Positions 2,856-36,932 of a DNA stretch of 37,985 nucleotides are shown here, piece after piece. Source of the DNA: a virus. Lineage: Duplodnaviria > Heunggongvirae > Uroviricota > Caudoviricetes. The stretch covers positions 1 to 37,985 of the IMG/VR virus record IMGVR_UViG_3300014614_000024. One strand, written 5' to 3'. A model generated the notes under the pieces. That model searched no databases. It saw nothing but the letters and a program-made list of their open reading frames with translations, and was not told where the DNA came from. The position numbers and the translations under genes are program-made. Numbering within the stretch: the first letter of the stretch is position 1; the number at the start of each line of letters is the position of its first letter.

Positions 2856-3074
2856 TCAAAGAGAGAGCGCCACCTGTCCTGATTTCATTGGATGCGGCTG
2901 AACCGGATTTGACTCTTTTGGCGTTGCAATCGAACGAACAAAAGTTTCATGGGTTACAAAAGTATGGCTGCAGTTAATATTCTGGCACTGGTTGTAACGC
3001 TCTTTGGTCAATGAAGATACCTGAAAACTGCTGCGAGTATGGGCGGCACTTCCACACAGTGGGCAAATCATCAT
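2856..3074 (-). CDS. ogr: Ogr/Delta-family zinc-finger late-gene activator (P2 Ogr / 186 B equivalent)
   Basis: 72 aa from the internal ATG at 3074; CPLCG-N19-CQNINC zinc-finger spacing like P2 Ogr; GGGGAG ~10 nt upstream; first gene inside the host junction, as ogr is in P2. Confidence 0.85.
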   Translation of the reverse strand: MMICPLCGSAAHTRSSFQVSSLTKERYNQCQNINCSHTFVTHETFVRSIATPKESNPVQPHPMKSGQVALSL

Positions 3075-3164
3075 TTTTCGAGTTCTCCCCATTTTTGCTA
3101 AATTCACAATAATGATACCGCATTATTCCATTTTGCAAACTTAAAAGTTCTCCATTGCGAAGAA

Positions 3165-23553: not shown

Positions 23554-24294
23554 TTACTCAATAGGTTCAAACTCATCCTGAGGAATCAGCGTCGATTGAC
23601 AGGCTTGGCTTAGTACTCCTGATAATTTACATAATAACCGATAGTTATGAGGAGCATCATCGCTAATCTTTTCGACCGTTAAAGTGATTGATTTTGGATC
23701 ATCCAATAACATCTTCTTGATATCATTACTTAAATACCTAGGGCAGTAACCAACGATTTCAGCTGGTTTATCTGCACGAACGACAACAGCATCCCCATCG
23801 TATTCATTTTGAAGATCCAAGCAAAGACGCAAAATTTGCCCCGGTTTCAATTCAGATACACGAGCATTAGCTAAGCTATTTAAGTAACCAAGTCCATGTA
23901 AGAAGAAAAAATGCTCAAAGTTACCATCAGAATCAACATCAATTTTTTTGAAAATCTGCAGCTGATCAGTGCTTCGTAAGCCTCCCGAGCGAGCAAGAAT
24001 ATCGATAGGATTTACCTTATCTTCTTCAAATCCAAGCCATTTAATGAAACTCGGATACTCTGGACGTCTCGGTGATAAAAGGCGATTTTTAAAAAGAGGA
24101 AACAATTCTTCCGAAACATAAGTTTCACGAACATCACTCATGCCGCTAAACTTTGTAAATTTAGTAGATTTAAGAGCACCTTTGGTATACCTGAAAACAT
24201 ACCCCGATTTGCGCTCTTGCAAGTTACCAACAACATGCCAGTCTCTGGTATCTGGTGCCTGCCATGCGACGTAAACGGAGTTTGTATTAGTCAT
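23554..24294 (-). CDS. HIRAN-domain protein (cargo; second gene of a two-gene operon)
   Basis: 246 aa; C-terminal segment LRLCLDLQNEYDGDAVVVRADKPAEIVGYCPRYLSNDIKKMLLD fits the HIRAN signature (N.yD..A..V...G.IGY.PR) as I recall it; ATG overlaps the upstream stop (ATGA); AT-rich. Confidence 0.6.
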   Translation of the reverse strand: MTNTNSVYVAWQAPDTRDWHVVGNLQERKSGYVFRYTKGALKSTKFTKFSGMSDVRETYVSEELFPLFKNRLLSPRRPEYPSFIKWLGFEEDKVNPIDILARSGGLRSTDQLQIFKKIDVDSDGNFEHFFFLHGLGYLNSLANARVSELKPGQILRLCLDLQNEYDGDAVVVRADKPAEIVGYCPRYLSNDIKKMLLDDPKSITLTVEKISDDAPHNYRLLCKLSGVLSQACQSTLIPQDEFEPIE

Positions 24295-25205
24295 TCTAGT
24301 AACCTTCTGCGATTTTCCATTACCATTAACGTTGCAAATCTACGTGCACTGTCGGATATACACGATGAAGGCACTTGGTTAAACACATCTGTAATGGAAT
24401 CTTCTGTTAAAACGCTCAACTTACCTAACCAATGGTCGCGAGCGGCAACTCTCCCTTCAACTGCATGTTGAAATGCTTCAACGGTCAGCAAGGGCTTTTT
24501 ATCAGTTTTTGCTTTGAATAGCTCAGAGCGAGCTTTTCTTACAAAACATGGGATTTGTCGATTTTTATCTTTAGTATTAAGCCGTTCGTTACGCTCATCA
24601 TCTAACATCTCCCTTCCTAAACTAGCGGCATGATCGTATGTTGGACACAAAAACTGCTCACCAGTTTCATTGTTAAGCATGATCGCCCAATTTTCATGAT
24701 GGCGATCTTGATTACTCACAAGTGCATCGAGCATCAAAAATCCACAAAATACATCTGCTGCATTTAGCCCGGTTAGATCATATACACTCGGAGGAGGCTT
24801 GATAGATTCCCTATCTAAACAACCCAATACCCTTGTGACAGTGTGTTCTCTGACCCTTACCGGCTTTTCCCCGGCTTGTAAAGGCCCTGGATAATCGAAT
24901 GTCGAACTGTGAAGCACTTCATTTCCCATTACCATCCGGAAACCAGATGGAATGATATTCTGAGTCACCACACCGAATCGACCATTGTATCGCGCCAAAT
25001 CATAGCTAGCATGTGGAATGTTAAGCAAATGACATAACTCAGCAGCACACTTTTCAGACCAATGCTCGCCAGTACCTGGCCTAGAGTACTTAAACAACTG
25101 CAAATTTACAGTGTCATCGGAGAAATAGAACCAAAACTTCTCTTTGGTTCCTAACTGTTCAAGATCGTTAGCTACGGGGCTAAGCTCTACCAATTGGTAT
25201 GGCAT
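24291..25205 (-). CDS. HipA-like Ser/Thr kinase core (short form, lacks the HipA N-terminal subdomains)
   Basis: 304 aa; motifs GTKEKF (compare HipA G.QEK), SNQDRHHENW (catalytic loop D.H..N) and LCPTYD (compare HipA LAPAYD); AGGGA upstream of the ATG at 25205. Confidence 0.65.
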   Translation of the reverse strand: MPYQLVELSPVANDLEQLGTKEKFWFYFSDDTVNLQLFKYSRPGTGEHWSEKCAAELCHLLNIPHASYDLARYNGRFGVVTQNIIPSGFRMVMGNEVLHSSTFDYPGPLQAGEKPVRVREHTVTRVLGCLDRESIKPPPSVYDLTGLNAADVFCGFLMLDALVSNQDRHHENWAIMLNNETGEQFLCPTYDHAASLGREMLDDERNERLNTKDKNRQIPCFVRKARSELFKAKTDKKPLLTVEAFQHAVEGRVAARDHWLGKLSVLTEDSITDVFNQVPSSCISDSARRFATLMVMENRRRLLE

Positions 25206-25350
25206 CTGACATCCCTGTTTAGCGGATTATGAATAAGTTAGGTTCCATTTTATCCAAACATTGTCAAATACTCTAAGATTTATTAGATGATAGAGCGATA
25301 CTGTATGCATGTCCAGCAATCAAATCAATATATAACTCTTATATGACTTA

Positions 25351-25380
25351 GCGCGCGCTCGTATCCCCGCCACGCCTGCC
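25351..25380 (-). other. putative cos site (cohesive-end region)
   Basis: minus-strand GGCGTGGCGGGGA (plus 25365-25376 ccccgccacgcc) matches the first 13 nt of the 186/P2 cohesive end as I recall it; lies in the only large non-coding gap between Q and A; flanked by repeated TCATGC motifs. Confidence 0.35.
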
Positions 25381-25867
25381 CGCTTTATGCAGTGGTTTTC
25401 ATGCACCTGCATGACATGAGTAAAAGCTCGCCAGTTCTAGCAGGTCTCTGCAAAAACGATCCTCAATCGATCATGCGATTTCATGCAGCATAGTCATGCA
25501 CAGCCAAGGGAAGCGTAAATCCGTATCTGAATGACCGCTGAAAAGCGAATCATACGGGTTTACAAAGATGAAAGTCCGCTGTGAGTGAAAAGCGGACATT
25601 AACTCCTTGCTTTTTGGCACTGAAACAGAGCGAAGCAGCATGTAAGCTGTTACGGATGCGCAGCGGTGACAACAGCAACTTCAATTAAGGAAATGCTCTT
25701 GGTTTTCGGGGAGACTTTTCGAGCGATATATGATAATGAAGACACTAAAAAACTGAACAGAAACGTCTAGCTCAATATGACTTCTGTTCAGGTATAAATG
25801 GTCTATTTATATATTCTCTCTTCAAATCCTTACTGAATACTCTCGAAGATGGCTAACGCCCCCTCTC

Positions 25868-26830
25868 TTAACCTTCATAGTTCATGCCGCCAAGATACGA
25901 AGGTATCATCATTAATGATTTAACCCTTTCTTTTTCTTTTTCGGTGAGATGACGACATGCAAATGGGTAAATATTGATCAAAAATGTCTTGAGTTCGTCA
26001 AATGCCTCATCTGAATATAGGGTCCCAGATCTTAACTCATTCATTATTGTCATGACCCATTTTATAAACACAGTTGGCATCATTACATCAGCTATATCTT
26101 CCCAGCCATCAATAAGGCCATTGTTTGTTTGTTTTCTAACATACTGCCGGAGTGCTTGGTCGCAGTTGCCTCGACACGTCCAAAAAATATGTTCATTATA
26201 CTCTGGTTCTTTTTCGTAGTCGGTGCGGATTCTTTGCCATATAGTGATAATTCCCTTGTCGTCTTGAGACAGAAGCTCTTTCTTGCAAACTTTGCATTTT
26301 AAGCTAGGTTCATCGGAAAATATTCTTGCGGGTTTGGGGTTTTCTGTTTTCCACTCAGATAACGACTTTGGGAAGTACCTTTCGGCAATTTCCAATCCTC
26401 TGGAAGAGTGTAAAAGTTCCCTCTCTATTTTCTCTTTATCGAAAACCTGAAATTCAATTCGTCCTTTCAACCCGTCAAGTATTCCAGACAGACCTGCACT
26501 AGCAAGAGTTGAATAGAACCCGATAAATCCTTGGCAGTTATTCGCTATTACTCGATCAGTAATATTTGCATCATCTCCTGGATTAACTGAATTTCCACTA
26601 TGAGCTTTATGCTTACAGCTTACCAACCAACGGATAATTGTTTCCCCGCCGACACCAGTCCTTTTTTCTTCGGCTATAATATCAACCCCACCGTCAGCCC
26701 CTCTATCTGGGTCAGATATAATTTTATATCCCAGAAAAGCTAAGAAGTCGCGAGAAAAAAGTTCAAATGTGTCTTGCAGCCCTGTTGCTTTATGAGCCTC
26801 TGGTATTTCTTTGAAGTCTAATACTGGCAT
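25868..26830 (-). CDS. Mrr-cat-like PD-(D/E)xK nuclease domain fused to a Cys-rich (CxxC...CxxxC) C-terminal domain; cargo
   Basis: 320 aa; N-terminal GADGGVDIIAEE...LVSCKHK resembles the restriction-endonuclease (Mrr catalytic) core; C-terminal CKVCKK...CRGNC; AT-rich; own divergent promoter region. Confidence 0.5.
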   Translation of the reverse strand: MPVLDFKEIPEAHKATGLQDTFELFSRDFLAFLGYKIISDPDRGADGGVDIIAEEKRTGVGGETIIRWLVSCKHKAHSGNSVNPGDDANITDRVIANNCQGFIGFYSTLASAGLSGILDGLKGRIEFQVFDKEKIERELLHSSRGLEIAERYFPKSLSEWKTENPKPARIFSDEPSLKCKVCKKELLSQDDKGIITIWQRIRTDYEKEPEYNEHIFWTCRGNCDQALRQYVRKQTNNGLIDGWEDIADVMMPTVFIKWVMTIMNELRSGTLYSDEAFDELKTFLINIYPFACRHLTEKEKERVKSLMMIPSYLGGMNYEG

Positions 26831-27112
26831 TTTTATGGGGTCCTTAAGTTGTTAATGCTTATTGGGTGGAAAGAACCGTATTTAAACACGGAGTTTCTGC
26901 CTCTGTAAATTTAATATGTAGAACACTCATCACTTTTTATAACTGACAATAGGATATTTAGACGTCTGTTTTTGGCACAAAGCAGACAAAAAACTGAAGG
27001 CCCACTGTGAACGAGAAACGGACTATGATACTAACAAGAGAGCATCACTGTTAATATTTGAACAATTAATGCTCAGCTATTTATCTATTTTTACAATTAG
27101 AAAGGACTTGTA

Positions 27113-27523
27113 ATGGTTACGGTTGATGAATTAAAGATGAAATATCCGGACGCGAATGCCTGGCAAATGGGCGACAGCCCTGAACTGGCTAACGAGCTTG
27201 CAGCGCTTATCAAAAAAGGAATTAAAACGGCCTCCTGCGGCTCTTATGCCTCTTACCAGAAGGAAGAGTTTGCCCCAAGGATTGGGAGCTATAACATCAT
27301 CCTTAACGGCCAAGATGTACCGGTATACGTGACCCGGCTGGTGTCGATGCGACTGGTGCGTTTTTGTGATGTTACTGCCGAGTTCGCTCGCAAGGAAGGT
27401 GAAGGCGATTTGAGTCTTGAATATTGGCAGAGAGAGCATCAACGATTTTTTACATGTGAAGGTTACTTTTCTGATGATATGGAGCTGATTATGGAAGAGT
27501 TTGAAGTTGTTGATGTTTTGTAA
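27113..27523 (+). CDS. ASCH (PUA-like) domain protein; cargo
   Basis: 136 aa; resembles the YqfB/ASCH family by eye (IKKGIKTAS..., ...AEFARKEGEGD...); AAAGGA 6 nt upstream of the ATG. Confidence 0.55.
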   Translation: MVTVDELKMKYPDANAWQMGDSPELANELAALIKKGIKTASCGSYASYQKEEFAPRIGSYNIILNGQDVPVYVTRLVSMRLVRFCDVTAEFARKEGEGDLSLEYWQREHQRFFTCEGYFSDDMELIMEEFEVVDVL

Positions 27524-27675
27524 TCCAACAACGTTTATGCATGTCAGATTAGAATAACTGAGTACCGTTTTATCACGTGAAATTTGTATTAATGCCCGCC
27601 TCTGGCACAAAGCGAACGAGCACTTATCAAAATGCCCACCCACCTTACGCCTCGTTTCACTCGTTGCCAAAACTA

Positions 27676-27705
27676 GCCCCCATCAGAATGAATCCTCTTG
27701 GGGGC
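27676..27705. terminator. hairpin terminator (gccccc...gggggc) between the ASCH gene and the convergent DinI-like gene
   Basis: 6-bp G/C stem with 18-nt loop; on the minus strand it is followed by tagTTTTgg, 9 nt after the DinI-like stop. Confidence 0.45.
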
Positions 27706-27713
27706 AACGTTTC

Positions 27714-27947
27714 TTAATGCAGCCAGCTGTCGTCTTCCCACACCTTCTGCATAATTTTCATCACTTGTTTTCTTTCTTCGTCCAGTTGCAATCCGGTAAG
27801 TTCCACACCGTTAGAGCTACCTTTGCGGATACGAATTACCGTTTTGGGATACAGGGGGCGCAGATTGCGGTAAAGCTCGGATTCAAGGGCGTCCAGGGTA
27901 GACTGGCTAATCTTCTGCTCTTTATCGATCATTATTTCAATGCGCAT
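27714..27947 (-). CDS. DinI-family protein
   Basis: 77 aa; MRIEIMIDK...ELYRNL...KIMQKVWEDD parallels E. coli DinI (MRIEVTIAK...ILQETWESADDW); GAGGTG 7 nt upstream. Confidence 0.7.
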   Translation of the reverse strand: MRIEIMIDKEQKISQSTLDALESELYRNLRPLYPKTVIRIRKGSSNGVELTGLQLDEERKQVMKIMQKVWEDDSWLH

Positions 27948-27958
27948 AAAAAGTCACC

Positions 27959-28147
27959 TCAACTGATGACATCCATTGAGCGGTTGTATTCGTGGGTTCT
28001 GATTTTTGCCATGAGTTCATCTGTTAGTTCAGAAACCCACTGCAAAGCCAGCCCCTTCTCTTCATCACTACACTCACTAGTCGCTACAAGCTTAAGAAAA
28101 AAATCAATGCGCTGGAGCTTCAAAGACTCCAAAAAATAGTCCTGCAT
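27959..28147 (-). CDS. small acidic protein, first gene of the SOS-box operon (candidate Tum-like antirepressor)
   Basis: 62 aa; AGGAGG upstream of ATG 28147; LexA box 43-58 bp upstream; positional analogy to 186 tum only, no sequence recognition. Confidence 0.35.
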   Translation of the reverse strand: MQDYFLESLKLQRIDFFLKLVATSECSDEEKGLALQWVSELTDELMAKIRTHEYNRSMDVIS

Positions 28148-33390: not shown

Positions 33391-33900
33391 TCACAGCAAA
33401 CCGAATGAAGCACCGAGGCCAGTCACGGTATCAACTGCACTCGCCATCGCAGGATTAGCCTGTAAACGGGCCTGCAATGAAACAGCCGCCAGCGCCATCA
33501 GTCGTGTTACAGAGTTAATGCTGCTGATAGCATCACGACGACCTGCACTGGTTTTTACATCGCCAGATACCGCACCTGCAGCAACACGCCCGATCTCTGC
33601 GGTTGCACTCATGACGTAATGTGGCAGTTTCTCTTTTGCCACCTCATTAATCGGTACGCATGGCAGGCAGTGAATCTGAGCCAGAAAACCATCTACCAGC
33701 GTTGAATCTTCAGTCAGATCGGTAAGCAGCCAGATTTCTGGTGCGGTTAATAAATGAGGTTGAGCCGGGTTCAGCTTGTTCCGCAGAATCTGCACATTCA
33801 TGCCAGCACGTTCTGCCAGTTGCACCAGGTTGTGGCGCAGCGCGAATGCACGACAGGCTTCATCAAAATGTGGATGTTTGGAAACTTGGTAATCAAACAT
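33391..33900 (-). CDS. cII: CII-like lysogeny-establishment transcription activator (phage 186 type)
   Basis: 169 aa from internal ATG 33900; [24 protein letters not shown]...[28 protein letters not shown] is near-identical to 186 CII as I recall it. Confidence 0.8.
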
Positions 33901-33932
33901 AGTCGACACCCCTGATGTATCCCAAAATGGAA

Positions 33933-34154
33933 CTAGTTGAATACAACATTGCAATCAGTAAGTGCATCAACGGTAAGAGCAGCAAGGTTGATCATTACCT
34001 TTTCTCTTTTCTTGTCTTTCCGAAGGCGATGACGAGGGATGCGACCATCAGCCAGCATATCGTTGATTGTGTCGATAGAAAGACCAGTAAGTTCGCTATA
34101 ACGCTCAATTGTGACGTGCGGCGTATTCAGAGTTATTGAAATGTTAGGGGTCAT
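33933..34154 (-). CDS. apl: Apl/Cox-like excisionase and early-promoter repressor
   Basis: 73 aa from ATG 34154 with AGGAG 10 nt upstream; HTH segment [25 protein letters not shown]; first gene of the early operon, divergent from cI. Confidence 0.7.
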
Positions 34155-34220
34155 GATGCAACATCTCCTATTGGCTTGTGGTGAGCCGGTATTAATCGTG
34201 ACGAAAACTTCACAAAACGG

Positions 34221-34249
34221 AGAATAGGTTCGCATAAAGAATATGTCAA
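34221..34249 (-). promoter_or_regulatory. candidate early lytic promoter pR (TTGACA-17-TATTCT)
   Basis: -35 TTGACA at 34249-34244 overlaps the cI start codon; -10 TATTCT at 34226-34221; transcribes toward apl. Confidence 0.45.
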
Positions 34250-35184
34250 CTAATAAAATCACATTTCGCCATATTGAAGATCATCTGAAAGCCATGGTCA
34301 TGCAGAATCGAGGAGGGCAAAAAGTCATTGAGAGAATACTCATGGCCTATGGTTTCAAATCACGCCAAGCATTCTGTAACCACCTTGGTATTTCACAAAG
34401 TACAATGGCTAACAGATATGCACGCGATACCTTCCCTGCTGATTGGGTTGTTATATGTTCAATGGAAACTGGCGCATCAATCGAATGGTTAGCATTTGGT
34501 TTAGATGCTGAAGAAGGAGTGCCAGCTCCTTCGCCAGAACGGCATGCTGAAAAACAGTCTGCAGATGAATTTTGCAATGAAGTTCACACCCCCACGATAA
34601 AGTTCGATAATGAAAACCACATGGATTTCACTCGAGGGGGTAAAGCAGCAATAGAGCGAATTGTTAAGGCTTACGGTTACAAAACGCGCCAAGCCTTAGC
34701 CGATCACCTTGGTATCTCAAAAAGCACATTAGCTACACGATACATGCGAGACATTTTTCCGGCAGACTGGATCATCCAATGCTGTTTAGAAACAGGAGTG
34801 TCTCTCGAGTGGTTATCTTTTGGTAAGGGGCATTCCAATCAAACAAAGCTAAGTGGGTTGCTTACATTAGACTGCTATGATCTACGTGACGGCAAACTTA
34901 CTGATCAAAGAGAATTAATCGTTTCGAGCGAAATTTTACCTCAAAATTTAAAACATCCCTATATAGTTAATTCCGCAAATGATTCATATATCATTAGCAA
35001 AGAGGAGTATCTTAGCGATGGTCTATGGTTAGTATCTATTAACGGAGAATTTACTTTTAGAGACATATTTAAACTTCCAAACAATCGCATCCGCGTTGAA
35101 AACACAAAATATAGCTTTGAATGCGATAAAGAAGATTTGGAATTTAATAATAAAGTTAAAGGAATAATTAGAAAAAGGGTTTAA
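34243..35184 (+). CDS. cI: CI-like immunity repressor (186 type) with duplicated N-terminal DNA-binding domain
   Basis: 313 aa; residues ~24-90 and ~132-198 are paralogous (GGQKVIERILMAYGFKSRQAF.NHLGISQSTMANRYARDTFPADW... versus GGKAAIERIVKAYGYKTRQALADHLGISKSTLATRYMRDIFPADW...), both like the 186 CI N-terminal domain; C-terminus (SDGLWLV...FKLP...FEC) like the 186 CI oligomerisation domain. Confidence 0.7.
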   Translation: MSTNKITFRHIEDHLKAMVMQNRGGQKVIERILMAYGFKSRQAFCNHLGISQSTMANRYARDTFPADWVVICSMETGASIEWLAFGLDAEEGVPAPSPERHAEKQSADEFCNEVHTPTIKFDNENHMDFTRGGKAAIERIVKAYGYKTRQALADHLGISKSTLATRYMRDIFPADWIIQCCLETGVSLEWLSFGKGHSNQTKLSGLLTLDCYDLRDGKLTDQRELIVSSEILPQNLKHPYIVNSANDSYIISKEEYLSDGLWLVSINGEFTFRDIFKLPNNRIRVENTKYSFECDKEDLEFNNKVKGIIRKRV

Positions 35185-35186
35185 CA

Positions 35187-36236
35187 ATGAGCTTTACGAA
35201 AACTATTGAATTTGCAAACTATACCTTAAATTTTGGAGAGGACAAAGTTCTCTTAGATGCTTTTGATTGCATTGTTTTTCCTTCATTTTTCGCACAAAAA
35301 TACGTTAGAAAATTTAAAGATACAGAATATTTCTTTACTGACACAAAAATTATTACGTTAGATACTACAGATTCAGATTTTATTGGTCCTATAGTTCCAA
35401 CAATTGCATTGTGTGGCCGCATTATAAAAAAGACCATATTTAAACGAGATCAAATATTTCAAGATGGTCAATTAATTCGAGATCACAGGACGCTAGAAAG
35501 TCACCCCAGCTCTATTTTTATTCTTATGCTTAATGAGCACAGATTAATGCTTTGCAAAGAGGTTTCTGGAGCCCCTACCCTAGAAGAATTTGAAAATACT
35601 AGCAAGTATTGCCTTGCACAGCGATATAATTCTTTTGTGGATTACGAAGTAAAAAAAAATAAAAGAATTAGAAAGAAAAAATCATACATTGATCGACTGT
35701 ATAAAAAAGATATTTATCGTAAACTAGGAGCCCCCAAATTACGGGTTACCCCCTTAACAGACCCAAGATCATTGAGCAATTTTGTTGAACTCTTTTCTGT
35801 TGTTAATAGATTATCAATTGAGTTATTGCCAACAAATAGTGAAAATATATCTCTTGATGGCTTCTGGAGGAAAATTGAACAAGAAAAAGAAGAACTTAAT
35901 AGTAGTAAAGCTCAATTAGTATACACAAATAAAAATGAAGATGGTTTAAATTCTGAGGCCGTCATTCAAAAAACAACAAGTGCAACCCGAATGGCCAACT
36001 CTAAAGTAATTATAAGTGGTAAAGATGAACACGGAGCAAGGCTATCAGGGAATAATGATAGTTTTACTCTAAAAGCATCAAGGCCACAACTTAGTTCTGA
36101 TTTGGAAAGAGCTGCTCAAGAGGCGTATTCTGCATTCACAGAATTAAAGGATGCAGGAAATATTATTATTCCAGAACGTGAAGATTATACTAAAATTTTT
36201 TCCAAGTTAACATCAATAATTTCTAGGTGGCTATAG
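35187..36236 (+). CDS. hypothetical soluble protein (cargo; first gene of a Rex-like pair)
   Basis: 349 aa, very AT-rich and Lys/Asn-rich; starts 3 nt after the cI stop; no family recognised. Confidence 0.5.
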   Translation: MSFTKTIEFANYTLNFGEDKVLLDAFDCIVFPSFFAQKYVRKFKDTEYFFTDTKIITLDTTDSDFIGPIVPTIALCGRIIKKTIFKRDQIFQDGQLIRDHRTLESHPSSIFILMLNEHRLMLCKEVSGAPTLEEFENTSKYCLAQRYNSFVDYEVKKNKRIRKKKSYIDRLYKKDIYRKLGAPKLRVTPLTDPRSLSNFVELFSVVNRLSIELLPTNSENISLDGFWRKIEQEKEELNSSKAQLVYTNKNEDGLNSEAVIQKTTSATRMANSKVIISGKDEHGARLSGNNDSFTLKASRPQLSSDLERAAQEAYSAFTELKDAGNIIIPEREDYTKIFSKLTSIISRWL

Positions 36237-36237
36237 T

Positions 36238-36843
36238 ATGAAATATACATTCAACCCAGAAGATCTGACCAAAGAGCGATCTTTGCATGATGTTTACAAA
36301 TTAACTAAAAAAATAAAGGTCAATTCATTTGACTTTTATTTCACATTATTATTAGTGATATTATTATCTATTAATGCTTTTTGTCTATCTTCATCACCAG
36401 AGTTAATTTCATCTATTAGACAATGGACACCTTTAGTATTCGGATTCACTACAACAACATTAGGTTTTTTAATTACTGGATTTACAATATTTGCAACCAT
36501 AAATAAACCTGAACTTTTCCTTTCATTAATGGAGTATAAGCATCCATTATACGGGATAAGTTACTTAAAATATGTTTATGGCGTATTTATGAGAGTATTT
36601 ATATATTTCATATTTTGGTCTGTTATCTATCTTTTAGTCCTTCTTTTCGGGCAAGAAAATGGATTGGCTACAAAATTACTCAGAGCCTTAATGTTTTCTC
36701 ATTGCACTAAAGTTGTTGGAGTTCAAATACTATATATACTCGTAGGAAGCAGTGCAGTGTTCCTTGTATTAACTTTAAAAACTTTCCTGTTCAATATTTA
36801 TGCTATGTTAATGCAATCTCTACGCTGGGAAGTAGAAAGATAA
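36238..36843 (+). CDS. hypothetical polytopic membrane protein (cargo; second gene of a Rex-like pair)
   Basis: 201 aa with four long hydrophobic segments; ATG 2 nt after the upstream stop; AGGTGG upstream. Confidence 0.55.
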   Translation: MKYTFNPEDLTKERSLHDVYKLTKKIKVNSFDFYFTLLLVILLSINAFCLSSSPELISSIRQWTPLVFGFTTTTLGFLITGFTIFATINKPELFLSLMEYKHPLYGISYLKYVYGVFMRVFIYFIFWSVIYLLVLLFGQENGLATKLLRALMFSHCTKVVGVQILYILVGSSAVFLVLTLKTFLFNIYAMLMQSLRWEVER

Positions 36844-36932
36844 AATTAACCTCAATGTATGAATCTCAATTCATATACATTGACACTGGTTATACATACA
36901 GTAAAAATGCTCTCCACTGGAGGGCATTTTTT

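What the first reader, a model, noticed from the sequence alone, without database searches (positions are those of the whole stretch)
34243..35184. Immunity repressor with a tandemly duplicated N-terminal DNA-binding domain
The 313-aa ORF contains two paralogous ~70-aa segments (residues ~24-90 and ~132-198, clearly alignable by eye), each resembling the N-terminal DNA-binding domain of 186 CI, followed by a 186-CI-like C-terminal oligomerisation domain. 186 CI has one such domain and is 192 aa. Either the repressor carries four DNA-binding domains per dimer, which would change operator geometry and immunity specificity, or translation starts internally (around MDFTRGG, residue ~127) to give a canonical-length CI with the upstream copy being a fused relic. 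The annotated start has only a weak Shine-Dalgarno sequence.
Basis: partly seen in the sequence, partly recalled or inferred. Interest (0 to 1): 0.6.

Follow-up and report, generated by a model that had tools for sequence, protein, structure and literature searches.

The report
Two-headed 186-type phage immunity repressor
The prophage's immunity repressor is a phage-186-type CI that carries a second, strongly conserved DNA-binding head on a flexible tether; this form is widespread in enterobacterial prophages but I found no study of it, and it may show how new phage immunity types arise.

Summary
ORF 34243-35184 (+) encodes 313 aa with two Phage_CI_repr (PF07022) helix-turn-helix domains, D1 (aa 22-91) and D2 (aa 130-200). 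They are 64% identical (E 2e-33). A 186-CI-type C-terminal domain (PF16452) follows.

It is not a relic, a frameshift or a mis-called start.
- About 45 protein clusters (about 1,800 sequences; E. coli, Salmonella, Klebsiella, Enterobacter, Citrobacter, Kosakonia, Edwardsiella) share the architecture. Phage PSP3 has its own version.
- D1 is the most constrained part of the protein (pN 0.01-0.12 against pS 0.28-0.89).
- The internal Met127 is not conserved. ATG 34243 is conserved in every context.

D2 plus the C-terminal domain is orthologous to ordinary single-head CIs (75-82% identity). D1 is a separate lineage (about 60% identical to everything else), so a fusion of two cI alleles is more likely than an in-gene duplication. 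AlphaFold gives three folded domains and a disordered linker of about 36 aa.

Best model (inferred): both heads bind DNA. D1 reads the outer TCACAwwwCG(G) repeats at pR. D2 reads the central pR site and 186-like flanking palindromes.

Verdict: a new variant of a known kind, of moderate interest.

The parts
34243..35184 (+). Long cI gene, 313 aa: leader, HTH domain D1, disordered linker, HTH domain D2, 186-type C-terminal domain
   Evidence: ORF; Pfam 2x PF07022 + PF16452; match to 186 CI 2FJR at E 1.8e-28; annotated 'phage repressor protein CI' in identical E. coli prophages and in Klebsiella phage 4LV2017
34243..34305 (+). Leader, codons 1-21 (MSTNKITFRHIEDHLKAMVMQ). It is translated, but its DNA also carries the pR -35 element and site C
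   Evidence: M1 and TFRH are conserved in the main group. Synonymous divergence is lower than in D1 (pS 0.09-0.49 against 0.28-0.89) and dN/dS is 0.4-1.6. pLDDT is below 50 for aa 1-6, with a helix at aa 13-20
34306..34506 (+). D1, the extra HTH domain (aa 22-88; recognition helix SQSTMANRYARD)
   Evidence: phmmer/Pfam; pN 0.01-0.12 with pS 0.28-0.89; helix invariant in 11 loci; forms its own clade in the domain tree; confident five-helix model
34507..34629 (+). Linker (aa 89-129), predicted disordered and hypervariable. It contains the ancestral-looking start Met127
   Evidence: pLDDT below 50 for aa 90-125; pN 0.21-0.65; variable in length and sequence in the alignment
34602..34617 (.). Linker-embedded motif GTTCGATAATGAAAAC (TTC-N6-GAA), about 390 bp from pR. 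Candidate FL-like flanking operator, or a relic of the fused gene's 5' region
   Evidence: Relatives carry palindromes at the same place: GTTCCCAATTGAGACC, GTCCCCAAATGAGATC, AACCCTATTGGGAAC. They resemble the pR sites of the single-head relative L068 and the central pR operator of 186. The motif co-varies with the D2 helix type
34583..34623 (+). Sigma-70-like hexamers TTCACA-17-GATAAT ending 9 nt before the ATG of Met127 (34621-34623). A possible lineage-specific internal, near-leaderless start; unproven
   Evidence: Consensus scan scores 10/12, but the number of such hits equals the chance expectation. The hexamers and ATG are kept in P0002 and P0003, but the ATG is ATT in P0004 and GTC in P0005
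34630..34836 (+). D2, the canonical HTH domain (aa 130-198; recognition helix SKSTLATRYMRD)
   Evidence: Pfam best stretch aa 135-197. It is 82%, 80% and 75% identical to the L068 short-CI head, L071 D2 and the E2348/69 short-CI head. Its helix is identical to that of the E2348/69 short CI, which sits at a switch
34837..35181 (+). C-terminal oligomerisation domain (aa 199-313), low G+C, exchanged together with the downstream cargo
   Evidence: PF16452; Foldseek to 2FKD TM 0.91, rmsd 1.7 A; G+C falls to 30-36%; nucleotide homology to other long cI genes stops near nt 551; pN 0.47-0.55
34221..34249 (-). Predicted lytic promoter pR: -35 TTGACA (34249-34244, overlapping the cI ATG) and -10 TATTCT (34226-34221), firing towards apl
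   Evidence: Consensus scan 10/12; conserved in 8 aligned switches; same layout as the annotated 186 pR
34210..34220 (+). Site A, TCACAAAACGG, at pR -10/+1. Candidate D1-class operator
   Evidence: Exact motif match; conserved in 11 loci; replaced by GTCCCCAAATGGGAAC in the D1-less relative L068
34228..34243 (+). Site B, GGTTCGCATAAAGAAT (TTC-N7-GAA), in the pR spacer. Candidate D2-class operator
   Evidence: Two sequence variants split 6:5 exactly with the two D2 recognition-helix variants, while sites A and C and the D1 helix stay constant. Same position as the central 186 pR operator
34259..34272 (+). Site C, TCACATTTCGCCAT, upstream of the pR -35 and inside cI codons 6-10. Candidate D1-class operator
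   Evidence: The 13 nt CACATTTCGCCAT are invariant in 11 loci, including third codon positions. They are mutated to TTAAAATTTAGCCAT where the gene is not at a switch, in E2348/69
33919..33933 (.). FR-like palindrome ATCCCAAAATGGAAC at the apl stop / cII start, about 290 bp from pR. Candidate D2-class flanking operator over the predicted pE start
   Evidence: Kept, with 1-2 variable bases, in all 10 loci tabulated whose switch-side CI has a D2-type head, whatever the D1 type. Same position as the annotated FR site of 186. It matches the L068 pR sites at 11 of 13 positions (counted by eye)
33933..34154 (-). apl-like gene (73 aa), first gene of the lytic operon
   Evidence: ORF; called as a 73-aa gene at this position in all related loci
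33391..33900 (-). cII (169 aa from ATG 33900)
   Evidence: PF06892 Phage_CP76, E 4.5e-42; annotated CII in relatives

Best explanation
The whole 313-aa ORF is translated from ATG 34243 and is the prophage's immunity repressor. Its C-terminal two thirds (D2 plus the C-terminal domain) are an ordinary 186-type CI, which in phage 186 dimerises and assembles into a DNA-wrapping wheel. Its N-terminal third is an additional HTH head (D1) attached by a disordered tether of about 36-40 residues. Each subunit therefore carries two DNA-reading heads, four per dimer.

I infer a division of labour at a switch laid out like that of 186. D1 reads the two outer pR sites, A (34210) and C (34259), which share the motif TCACAwwwCG(G) and define this immunity type. 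D2 reads the central pR site B and the 186-like flanking palindromes. These are the FR-like site at 33919-33933 over pE and possibly the linker-embedded site at 34602-34617. Occupying A, B and C shuts pR, whose -35 element overlaps the cI start codon.

The architecture most likely arose by fusing the N-terminal head and switch of one cI allele onto a complete second cI. Met127 is the old start codon.

Shown: the architecture, its conservation and selection, the start codon, synteny, and the conserved DNA motifs. Inferred: which head binds which site, and that the protein forms a wheel.

The confidence given (0.5) is for the whole statement. It is about 0.9 for 'the full-length two-headed protein is the functional repressor' and about 0.4-0.5 for the specific division of labour.
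For: Architecture and folds.

Not a relic:
- 45 of 45 homologues of 280 aa or more have both heads.
- D1 has pN 0.01-0.12 against pS 0.28-0.89, tighter than D2 at pN 0.10-0.26.
- The D1 helix is invariant in 11 loci.

Start codon.

D2 is competent to bind DNA:
- It is 75-82% identical to the sole heads of single-head CIs.
- Its recognition helix is identical to that of the E2348/69 short CI, which sits at a switch.
- 196-aa single-head CIs (P0107-118, P0095) nest among the D2 sequences in the leaf order of the domain tree. One of them, seen in locus L068, sits at a switch.

Switch layout matches the annotated 186 record, which has three CI sites across pR starting at the cI ATG, plus FL and FR.

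Assignment of heads to sites, by covariation:
- The pR sites change with the type of the first head. The main D1 goes with TCACAwwwCGG. The L071 D1' goes with CTCACAAAATGTGAG palindromes. The L061 D1 goes with TTCTTCATTTGAGAAG. L068, which has no D1, goes with GTCCCCAAATGGGAAC.
- The FR-like palindrome stays constant, with 1-2 variable bases, in every locus whose switch-side CI has a D2-type head.
- Within the main group, sites A and C and the D1 helix are constant. Site B exists in two forms that split 6:5 exactly with the D2 helix variants ATRYM and ANRY(M/L).
- Site C is invariant at synonymous positions at switches but mutated in E2348/69, where the gene has no switch.
- The TCACA repeats are absent from the att-side DNA, so they are not Apl sites.
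Against: No binding experiment exists, so all head-to-site assignments rest on covariation among related and therefore non-independent phages. The 6:5 split is essentially two subclades.

The motif count in the window is not significant on its own: 2 exact TCACAWWWCG against 0.84 expected, reached by 21 of 100 shuffles. The weight comes from position and conservation.

Phage 186 itself manages two distinct recognition sequences with a single HTH. This rests on the title of Shearwin et al. 2002, cited in PMC3675496, and on the 186 pR sites differing from its FL, FR and pB sites. Two site classes therefore do not by themselves require two heads.

Site B is not clearly palindromic in half of the loci. 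pL was not located. The start has only a weak Shine-Dalgarno. The AlphaFold pTM is 0.39, so nothing is known about contacts between D1 and D2.
Confidence: 0.5

Rival explanations
1. Single-chain pseudo-dimer. D1 and D2 of one polypeptide bind side by side on the same operator, each taking one half-site (TCACA plus the CGG side). A monomer would then fill a whole asymmetric operator, a dimer two operators, and the stoichiometry of the wheel on DNA would double.
For: Sites A, B and C are asymmetric direct repeats rather than the 6-N5-6 palindromes of 186. The long flexible linker would allow the two heads any relative orientation. Both heads are conserved.
Against: The conserved blocks TCACA and CGG are centred only about 7 bp apart. 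By general knowledge of HTH-DNA complexes, two heads in adjacent major grooves sit about 10 bp apart, so this is too close. The FR-like and linker-embedded sites are symmetric and stay constant while the D1 type changes. Site B alone tracks the D2 helix.
Confidence: 0.2
2. Two isoforms, or a short form only. Translation, or a near-leaderless transcript from the embedded TTCACA-17-GATAAT promoter, starts at Met127. This gives a canonical 187-aa CI, either alone or mixed with the full-length protein in hetero-oligomers.
For: MDFTRGGK looks exactly like the N-terminus of short CIs: MDLRRGGK, MNFKNGGQ, MSLEKGGR. The promoter-like hexamers, their 17-bp spacing and the ATG are retained in P0002 and P0003 although the spacer between them has diverged. 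Nested repressor isoforms are known in other phages, for example the phiC31 c gene (from memory).
Against: The ATG is ATT in P0004, GTC in P0005, and I, V or L in most of the family. No Shine-Dalgarno precedes it. The promoter scan finds no more hits than expected by chance: 2 found, 2.0 expected. A short form alone cannot explain dN/dS of 0.01-0.10 in D1.
Confidence: 0.1
3. D1 is conserved but does not read operators. It would be a regulatory head: a docking or decoy site for an antirepressor, an autoinhibitory partner of D2, or a tether contributing only non-specific DNA affinity.
For: [quoted passage not shown] A DinI-like ORF and a small upstream ORF lie where a Tum-type antirepressor could be encoded (judged by eye).
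Against: The S-x-S-T-x-A-N-R-Y-x-R recognition helix is the best conserved stretch of D1. The pR-proximal motifs change whenever the D1 type changes and revert to D2-class palindromes when D1 is absent. Site C decays when the gene leaves the switch.
Confidence: 0.12
4. Artefact or pseudogene: an assembly frameshift fusing a small upstream ORF to cI, or a decaying fusion with no function.
For: None found.
Against: The same ORF occurs in 11 complete E. coli genomes and 13 phage records. The frame is intact in 45 divergent clusters. Purifying selection is strong.
Confidence: 0.01

Closest known systems
Coliphage 186 CI immunity repressor (192 aa; PDB 2FJR and 2FKD)
   Same: - aa 136-309 align to 186 CI residues 10-185 (E 1.8e-28).
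- The C-terminal domain has the same fold (TM 0.91).
- It occupies the same gene position, facing apl and cII.
- pR lies next to the cI start.
- Three candidate sites span pR, and there is a palindrome at the FR position.
   Different: - There are two HTH heads per subunit instead of one.
- The cI ATG overlaps the pR -35, so an operator lies inside codons 6-10. In 186 the ATG is 15 bp from the -35.
- The outer pR sites are direct TCACAwwwCGG repeats spaced 20 and 29 bp apart, not three sites two turns apart.
- Identity to 186 is only about 38% in the heads.
- Wheel formation was not tested.
Salmonella phage PSP3 CI (286 aa, NC_005340)
   Same: A sequenced 186-type phage (genus Eganvirus) whose cI also has 2x PF07022 plus PF16452. 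This shows that the two-headed architecture occurs in a named, fully sequenced phage.
   Different: It is only about 36% identical, with a shorter linker of about 25 aa. Its two heads resemble each other (51%) about as much as either resembles any other head, so it is probably an independent origin. It has a different Apl-position gene. The one paper found that comments on it calls it 'a longer C-terminal domain' (PMC3448106).
Single-head CIs of the same prophage group (196-aa L068 type; 189-aa E2348/69 type)
   Same: Their sole head is 75-82% identical to D2. They share the apl, cII and int synteny and the FR-like site. L068 even shares the MST start overlapping the pR -35 and the tail of the linker (YPNEIKINPNQGG).
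   Different: They have no D1. Their pR sites are palindromes of the FR class rather than TCACAwwwCGG.
P2 C repressor (99 aa)
   Same: It is the immunity repressor of the sister switch type in P2-like phages and binds direct repeats rather than palindromes (PMC2995052 abstract).
   Different: There is no sequence relationship, it has a single small domain, and it has no wheel-forming C-terminal domain. Nilsson et al. state that C and CI cannot be aligned.
Engineered single-chain 434 and Cro repressors (from memory, not checked here)
   Same: Two HTH heads on one chain joined by a flexible linker, able to read asymmetric operators. This is the mechanistic analogue for the rival 'pseudo-dimer' model.
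   Different: They are artificial, have no oligomerisation domain, and are not a natural immunity system.

Membership tests
186-type CI repressors (Phage_CI_repr + Phage_CI_C) | N-terminal PF07022 helix-turn-helix domain | tested here: met
   PF07022 at E 2.5e-57, in two stretches; five-helix models for both
186-type CI repressors (Phage_CI_repr + Phage_CI_C) | C-terminal PF16452 beta-domain with the fold of the 186 CI wheel subunit | tested here: met
   PF16452 at E 1.3e-19; 2FKD at E 3.7e-12 by sequence; TM 0.91 and rmsd 1.7 A by fold
186-type CI repressors (Phage_CI_repr + Phage_CI_C) | One HTH head per subunit (the architecture of 186 CI) | tested here: not met
   Two heads, at aa 22-91 and 130-200
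186-type CI repressors (Phage_CI_repr + Phage_CI_C) | [quoted passage not shown] | tested here: met
   cII, apl, an 88-bp spacer, cI, two ORFs, int; the 186 record for comparison
186-type CI repressors (Phage_CI_repr + Phage_CI_C) | Three operators over pR plus distal flanking sites (FL, FR) and sites at pB | tested here: inconclusive
   Candidate sites A, B and C, an FR-like site and a linker-embedded site are conserved and co-vary with the heads. The motif count alone is not significant. The pB region has only one plausible palindrome. No binding data exist.
186-type CI repressors (Phage_CI_repr + Phage_CI_C) | Assembly of dimers into a 14-mer wheel that wraps DNA | not testable with these tools
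   Only a monomer model was possible. The C-terminal domain is highly divergent between relatives, with pN about 0.5.
LexA / lambda-CI type self-cleaving repressors (HTH + peptidase S24) | Peptidase_S24 domain detectable by sequence | tested here: not met
   No S24 family among the Pfam hits. LexA and UmuD appear only as distant fold matches, at 11-20% identity and E 1e-5 or weaker. One source nevertheless labels a homologue 'HTH and peptidase S24'.
P2 C-type repressors | Small (about 100 aa) single-domain repressor homologous to P2 C | tested here: not met
   All homologues found are CI-type.

The most novel reading that the evidence does not exclude
The two-headed CI is a modular dual-specificity repressor. 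One wheel would carry 28 heads of two specificities: D1 for the outer pR sites, and D2 for the central pR, FL-like and FR-like sites. New immunity types would be made by swapping the 'switch + D1' cassette onto an unchanged D2 core, while the C-terminal domain is swapped together with the downstream defence cargo. In E2348/69-type prophages, a switch-less copy placed behind an ordinary cI would act in trans as a captured cross-immunity (anti-phage) gene against phages of this window's immunity type.
Probability: 0.3. Interest if true: 0.75.

Novelty: new variant of a known kind. Interest (0 to 1): 0.55.

Why it matters
Phage 186 CI is the textbook case of a repressor that works as a DNA-wrapping wheel, and its single head puzzlingly reads two unrelated operator sequences. 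A natural, widespread version with two different heads per subunit offers three things.

- It is a ready-made test of how operator geometry, head number and wheel wrapping relate.
- It suggests a route to new immunity specificities: bolt a new head and switch onto an existing repressor rather than mutate the old head.
- It exposes a three-part mosaic (switch + D1, then D2, then C-terminal domain + cargo) that ties repressor evolution to the anti-phage cargo hotspot between cI and int.

On the practical side, annotation pipelines label these genes simply 'repressor CI'. At least one phage record (MK416020) starts the CDS at an internal codon, so the extra head is easily missed.

Tried and rejected
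- The genome-contig scan with the family alignment returned mostly single-head CIs (Xenorhabdus, Yersinia and others). Only 2-5 loci were of the long type, so it was of little use for operator discovery.
- A protein search with D1 alone returned only truncated fragments of 52-136 aa. It neither found nor excluded a stand-alone 'D1 + C-terminal domain' protein.
- Counting TCACAWWWCG(G) in the whole window and the 186-type TTCAC-N5-GTGAA gave no enrichment over shuffles. TYCCCAAWTGRGA gave 3 hits against 5.4 expected, although two of them fall at the pB and FR positions.
- The generic repeat finder reported ATTAATCG(N)GACG at 33646, 34191 and 34914. I dropped it, because nothing in the alignments supported a repeated element.
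- No plus-strand promoter for pL reached the scan threshold.
- PADLOC and Pfam gave nothing for the two ORFs downstream of cI.
- Literature searches for PF07022/Phage_CI_repr, 4LV2017, PSP3 repressor and two-HTH 186 CI found no description of the tandem architecture.
- Two literature searches failed on short terms.
- Dodd & Egan 2002 (PMC2941640) is not held, so the A-type and B-type operator definitions could not be read directly.
- I considered that the TCACA repeats are Apl sites and rejected it. Sites B and C lie upstream of the pR -10, outside the zone between pR and pL, and the att-side DNA lacks the motif.
- I considered a recent internal duplication and rejected it on the identity matrix and the domain tree.
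Full report
**1. The observation**

The ORF at 34243-35184 (+) exists and encodes 313 aa.
- Pfam finds two stretches of the 186-type CI helix-turn-helix domain PF07022 (E 2.5e-57). It also finds the 186-type C-terminal domain PF16452 (aa 213-305, E 1.3e-19).
- The two heads lie at aa 22-91 (D1) and 130-200 (D2). They align without gaps at 64% identity, E 2e-33.
- Residues 136-309 match the crystal-structure sequence of 186 CI, 2FJR, at E 1.8e-28.
- 186 CI itself is 192 aa with one head.
- The start codon has no good Shine-Dalgarno.

**2. Context**

The window is a 186/P2-like prophage of E. coli. The gene order is cII (PF06892), a 73-aa apl-like gene, an 88-bp spacer, this cI, two unknown ORFs, and int. 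The same prophage sits next to rcdA in complete E. coli genomes, where the gene is annotated 'phage repressor protein CI'. It is 99.3% identical in Klebsiella phage 4LV2017. Eleven complete genomes and 13 phage records carry the intact ORF, so a sequencing frameshift is excluded.

**3. The architecture is a conserved family, not a relic**

A protein search returned about 45 clusters of 290-330 aa at 40-62% identity. They come from E. coli, Salmonella, Klebsiella, Enterobacter, Citrobacter, Kosakonia and Edwardsiella. Summing the listed cluster sizes gives about 1,800 member sequences. All 45 have both heads.

In codon-level comparisons with seven relatives, D1 has pN 0.01-0.12 while pS is 0.28-0.89. 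It is the most constrained part of the protein, tighter than D2 (pN 0.10-0.26). The linker and the C-terminal domain evolve fast (pN 0.2-0.65).

The D1 recognition helix SQSTMANRYARD is identical in all 11 switch-located loci tabulated, which include the window.

**4. The start codon**

- Met127 (MDFTRGG) is not conserved. It is ATT in P0004, GTC in P0005, and I, V or L in most relatives. No Shine-Dalgarno precedes it.
- Met18 and Met20 are also not conserved. Codon 20 is ATA in L060 and CTG in L007.
- Met1 is nearly invariant.
- In E. coli E2348/69 the homologous gene lies behind another gene, and homology to the window begins about 10 bp before this ATG.
- The 21-codon leader has unusually low synonymous divergence and a relaxed dN/dS. 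This fits, because its DNA carries the predicted pR -35 (TTGACA, 34249-34244, overlapping the ATG) and a 13-nt invariant block, site C.

**5. Origin**

- D2 is 82% identical to the sole head of a 196-aa CI (L068), 75% identical to the sole head of the E2348/69 189-aa CI, and 80% identical to another family's D2.
- D1 is 57-63% identical to D2 and to the other enterobacterial CI heads compared. In the domain tree the main-group D1s cluster together, with no single-head member among the 120 listed hits.
- A second group of two-headed CIs (P0033-36, 39, 40, 43, 44, 46, 47, 51) has first heads that cluster with ordinary short CIs.
- Phage PSP3 has yet another two-headed CI of 286 aa.

The architecture has therefore arisen, or its first head has been exchanged, several times.

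MDFTRGGK looks like the N-terminus of a short CI. E2348/69-type prophages carry a short cI followed 50 bp later by an intact long cI. Together these point to a fusion of two cI alleles, not an in-gene duplication.

The 196-aa L068 CI begins MSTSK and continues with the linker tail YPNEIKINPNQGG. The 196-aa clusters of this type fall among the D2 sequences in the leaf order of the tree. This looks like a secondary loss of D1.

**6. Structure**

AlphaFold2 with the 45-sequence alignment gives three confident domains: aa 13-88, 130-198 and 205-310. The linker at aa 90-125 has pLDDT below 50, and pTM is 0.39, which amounts to beads on a string. Foldseek matches 2FJR, and matches 2FKD with TM 0.91 and rmsd 1.7 A for the C-terminal domain.

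**7. The switch DNA**

The annotated 186 record shows three CI sites spanning pR from the cI ATG, with FL inside cI, FR at the apl/cII junction and two sites at pB. FL, FR and pB are ATTCAC-N5-GTGAAT palindromes.

In the window the predicted pR sits in the same place. Around it are three direct repeats:
- Site A, TCACAAAACGG, at 34210, over the -10/+1.
- Site B at 34228-34243, in the promoter spacer.
- Site C, TCACATTTCGCCAT, at 34259, upstream of the -35 and inside codons 6-10.

These are conserved in 11 loci whose proteins are only about 50% identical.

Right after the apl stop is a palindrome, ATCCCAAAATGGAAC (33919-33933), at the position of 186 FR. It is kept, with 1-2 variable bases, in every locus whose switch-side CI has a D2-type head.

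Many long cI genes carry a palindrome of the same class in the DNA encoding the end of the linker. The window's version is GTTCGATAATGAAAAC, at 34602-34617.

**8. Which head reads what (inference)**

- The pR-proximal sites change with the first head. The main D1 goes with TCACAwwwCGG, and the L071 D1' goes with CTCACAAAATGTGAG palindromes. The L061 D1 goes with TTCTTCATTTGAGAAG. L068, with no D1, has GTCCCCAAATGGGAAC, which is of the FR class.
- D2 and the FR-like site stay constant.
- Within the main group, the D1 helix and sites A and C are constant. Site B has two forms that split 6:5 exactly with the two D2 helix variants, ATRYM and ANRY(M/L).
- Site C is mutated at four positions in E2348/69, where the gene has no switch.
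- The repeats are not Apl sites. Sites B and C lie outside the zone between pR and pL, and the att-side DNA lacks the motif.

Hence the model: D1 reads the outer pR sites, and D2 reads the central pR site and the flanking palindromes.

Caveats:
- The loci are related, so the covariation is not independent evidence.
- The motif count alone is at chance level.
- Phage 186 reads two sequence classes with one head.

**9. The internal-start idea**

A sigma-70-like TTCACA-17-GATAAT ends 9 nt before the Met127 ATG. The hexamers and the ATG survive in P0002 and P0003 despite divergence of the spacer between them. They do not survive in P0004, P0005 or the wider family, and the scan's hit count equals the chance expectation. 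A lineage-specific short isoform cannot be excluded, but it is not the explanation for the architecture.

**10. Comparison with what is known**

This is a member of the 186 CI family by both domains and by synteny, but it departs from the defining one-head architecture.

The only comment found in the searchable literature concerns PsP3 and a prophage the authors call PhiECO3. [quoted passage not shown] The Pfam result for PSP3 shows that this description is wrong for PSP3.

No solved structure other than single-head 186 CI and a lambda-186 hybrid matches. I therefore rate it a new variant of a known kind: real, widespread, automatically annotated, and uncharacterised as far as I could find.

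**11. Verdict**

- The 'four heads per dimer' reading is supported.
- The 'relic with internal start' reading is not supported.
- 'Duplication' is better described as a fusion of paralogous heads.
- Confidence that the full-length two-headed protein is the functional repressor is about 0.9.
- Confidence in the specific division of labour between the heads is about 0.4-0.5.

Noticed in passing
L003 2381-3924 (E. coli E2348/69) and L059: Two CI genes in a row. A canonical 189-aa cI sits at the switch (125-bp spacer). An intact two-headed cI (307 aa, about 60% identical to the window's) starts 50 bp downstream, followed by a KAP-family NTPase and int. The second gene has lost site C and has no switch of its own. 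It may act as a captured cross-immunity gene, or it may be a fusion intermediate.
   Followed up: partly
L073 1453-2313 (Salmonella phage PSP3 cI): The sequenced 186-type phage PSP3 also encodes a two-headed CI (286 aa, 2x PF07022 + PF16452, shorter linker). The one paper found that mentions its extra length attributes it to a longer C-terminal domain.
   Followed up: partly
window 34800-36850: G+C drops from about 44% (D1-D2) to 30-36% in the part of cI encoding the C-terminal domain. It is 26-34% in the two downstream ORFs (35187-36236, 349 aa; 36238-36843, 201 aa, which looks membrane-like by eye). Nucleotide homology to other long cI genes stops near nt 551. The repressor's oligomerisation domain therefore seems to be exchanged together with the cargo between cI and int.
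   Followed up: partly
window 35187-36843; L005, L059, L060, L061, L068: The cI-int interval is a variable cargo slot. Relatives carry GmrSD_N + HEPN, AAA_15/AAA_21 + DUF4276, a KAP NTPase, an 'ATP-dependent nuclease', or a 664-aa AAA_15/21 protein. The window's two ORFs have no Pfam or PADLOC match and could be an undescribed defence pair.
   Followed up: partly
L068 3001-3591: A 196-aa single-head CI whose N-terminus is the long-CI start (MSTSK) joined to the long-CI linker tail (YPNEIKINPNQGG). Its pR sites are GTCCCCAAATGGGAAC and GTACCCAAATGAGATC. It looks like a D1-deletion derivative that reverted to FR-class operators.
   Followed up: partly
window 34583-34623: Promoter-like TTCACA-17-GATAAT ending 9 nt before the ATG of Met127. 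It is kept in two of the closest relatives and lost in others. It could be a relic of the fused gene's own 5' region or a lineage-specific internal start.
   Followed up: partly
window 3082-3162 (- strand): Upstream of the B/Ogr-like gene (2856-3107, -) there is a pB-like promoter (TTTGCA-16-TATCAT). There is also a 6-N5-6 palindrome, TTCTTC-GCAAT-GGAGAA, plus repeats of AATGG(R)GAGAAC. These are possible CI sites at pB, as in 186.
   Followed up: no
window 23554-28147: A second cargo region between the late genes and the replication gene. It holds HIRAN-domain, weak HipA_C-like, Mrr_cat and ASCH proteins. A 77-aa ORF (27714-27947, -) looks DinI-like by eye, with a 62-aa ORF upstream. That is where a Tum-type antirepressor might be encoded.
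   Followed up: no
L002 2501-3436 (Klebsiella phage ST11-VIM1phi8.4, MK416020): The deposited annotation starts this two-headed cI at an internal codon (locus position 2663, 54 codons in), cutting into D1. This is an example of the extra head being mis-annotated.
   Followed up: no
L004 7744-7847: The att-side DNA after int in the twin prophage has two copies of AACTTATTGTTTT and Int arm-type AAGTGGCG repeats. The TATTG/TATTA elements between pR and apl in the window (about 34168 and 34189) may be the Apl sites.
   Followed up: no
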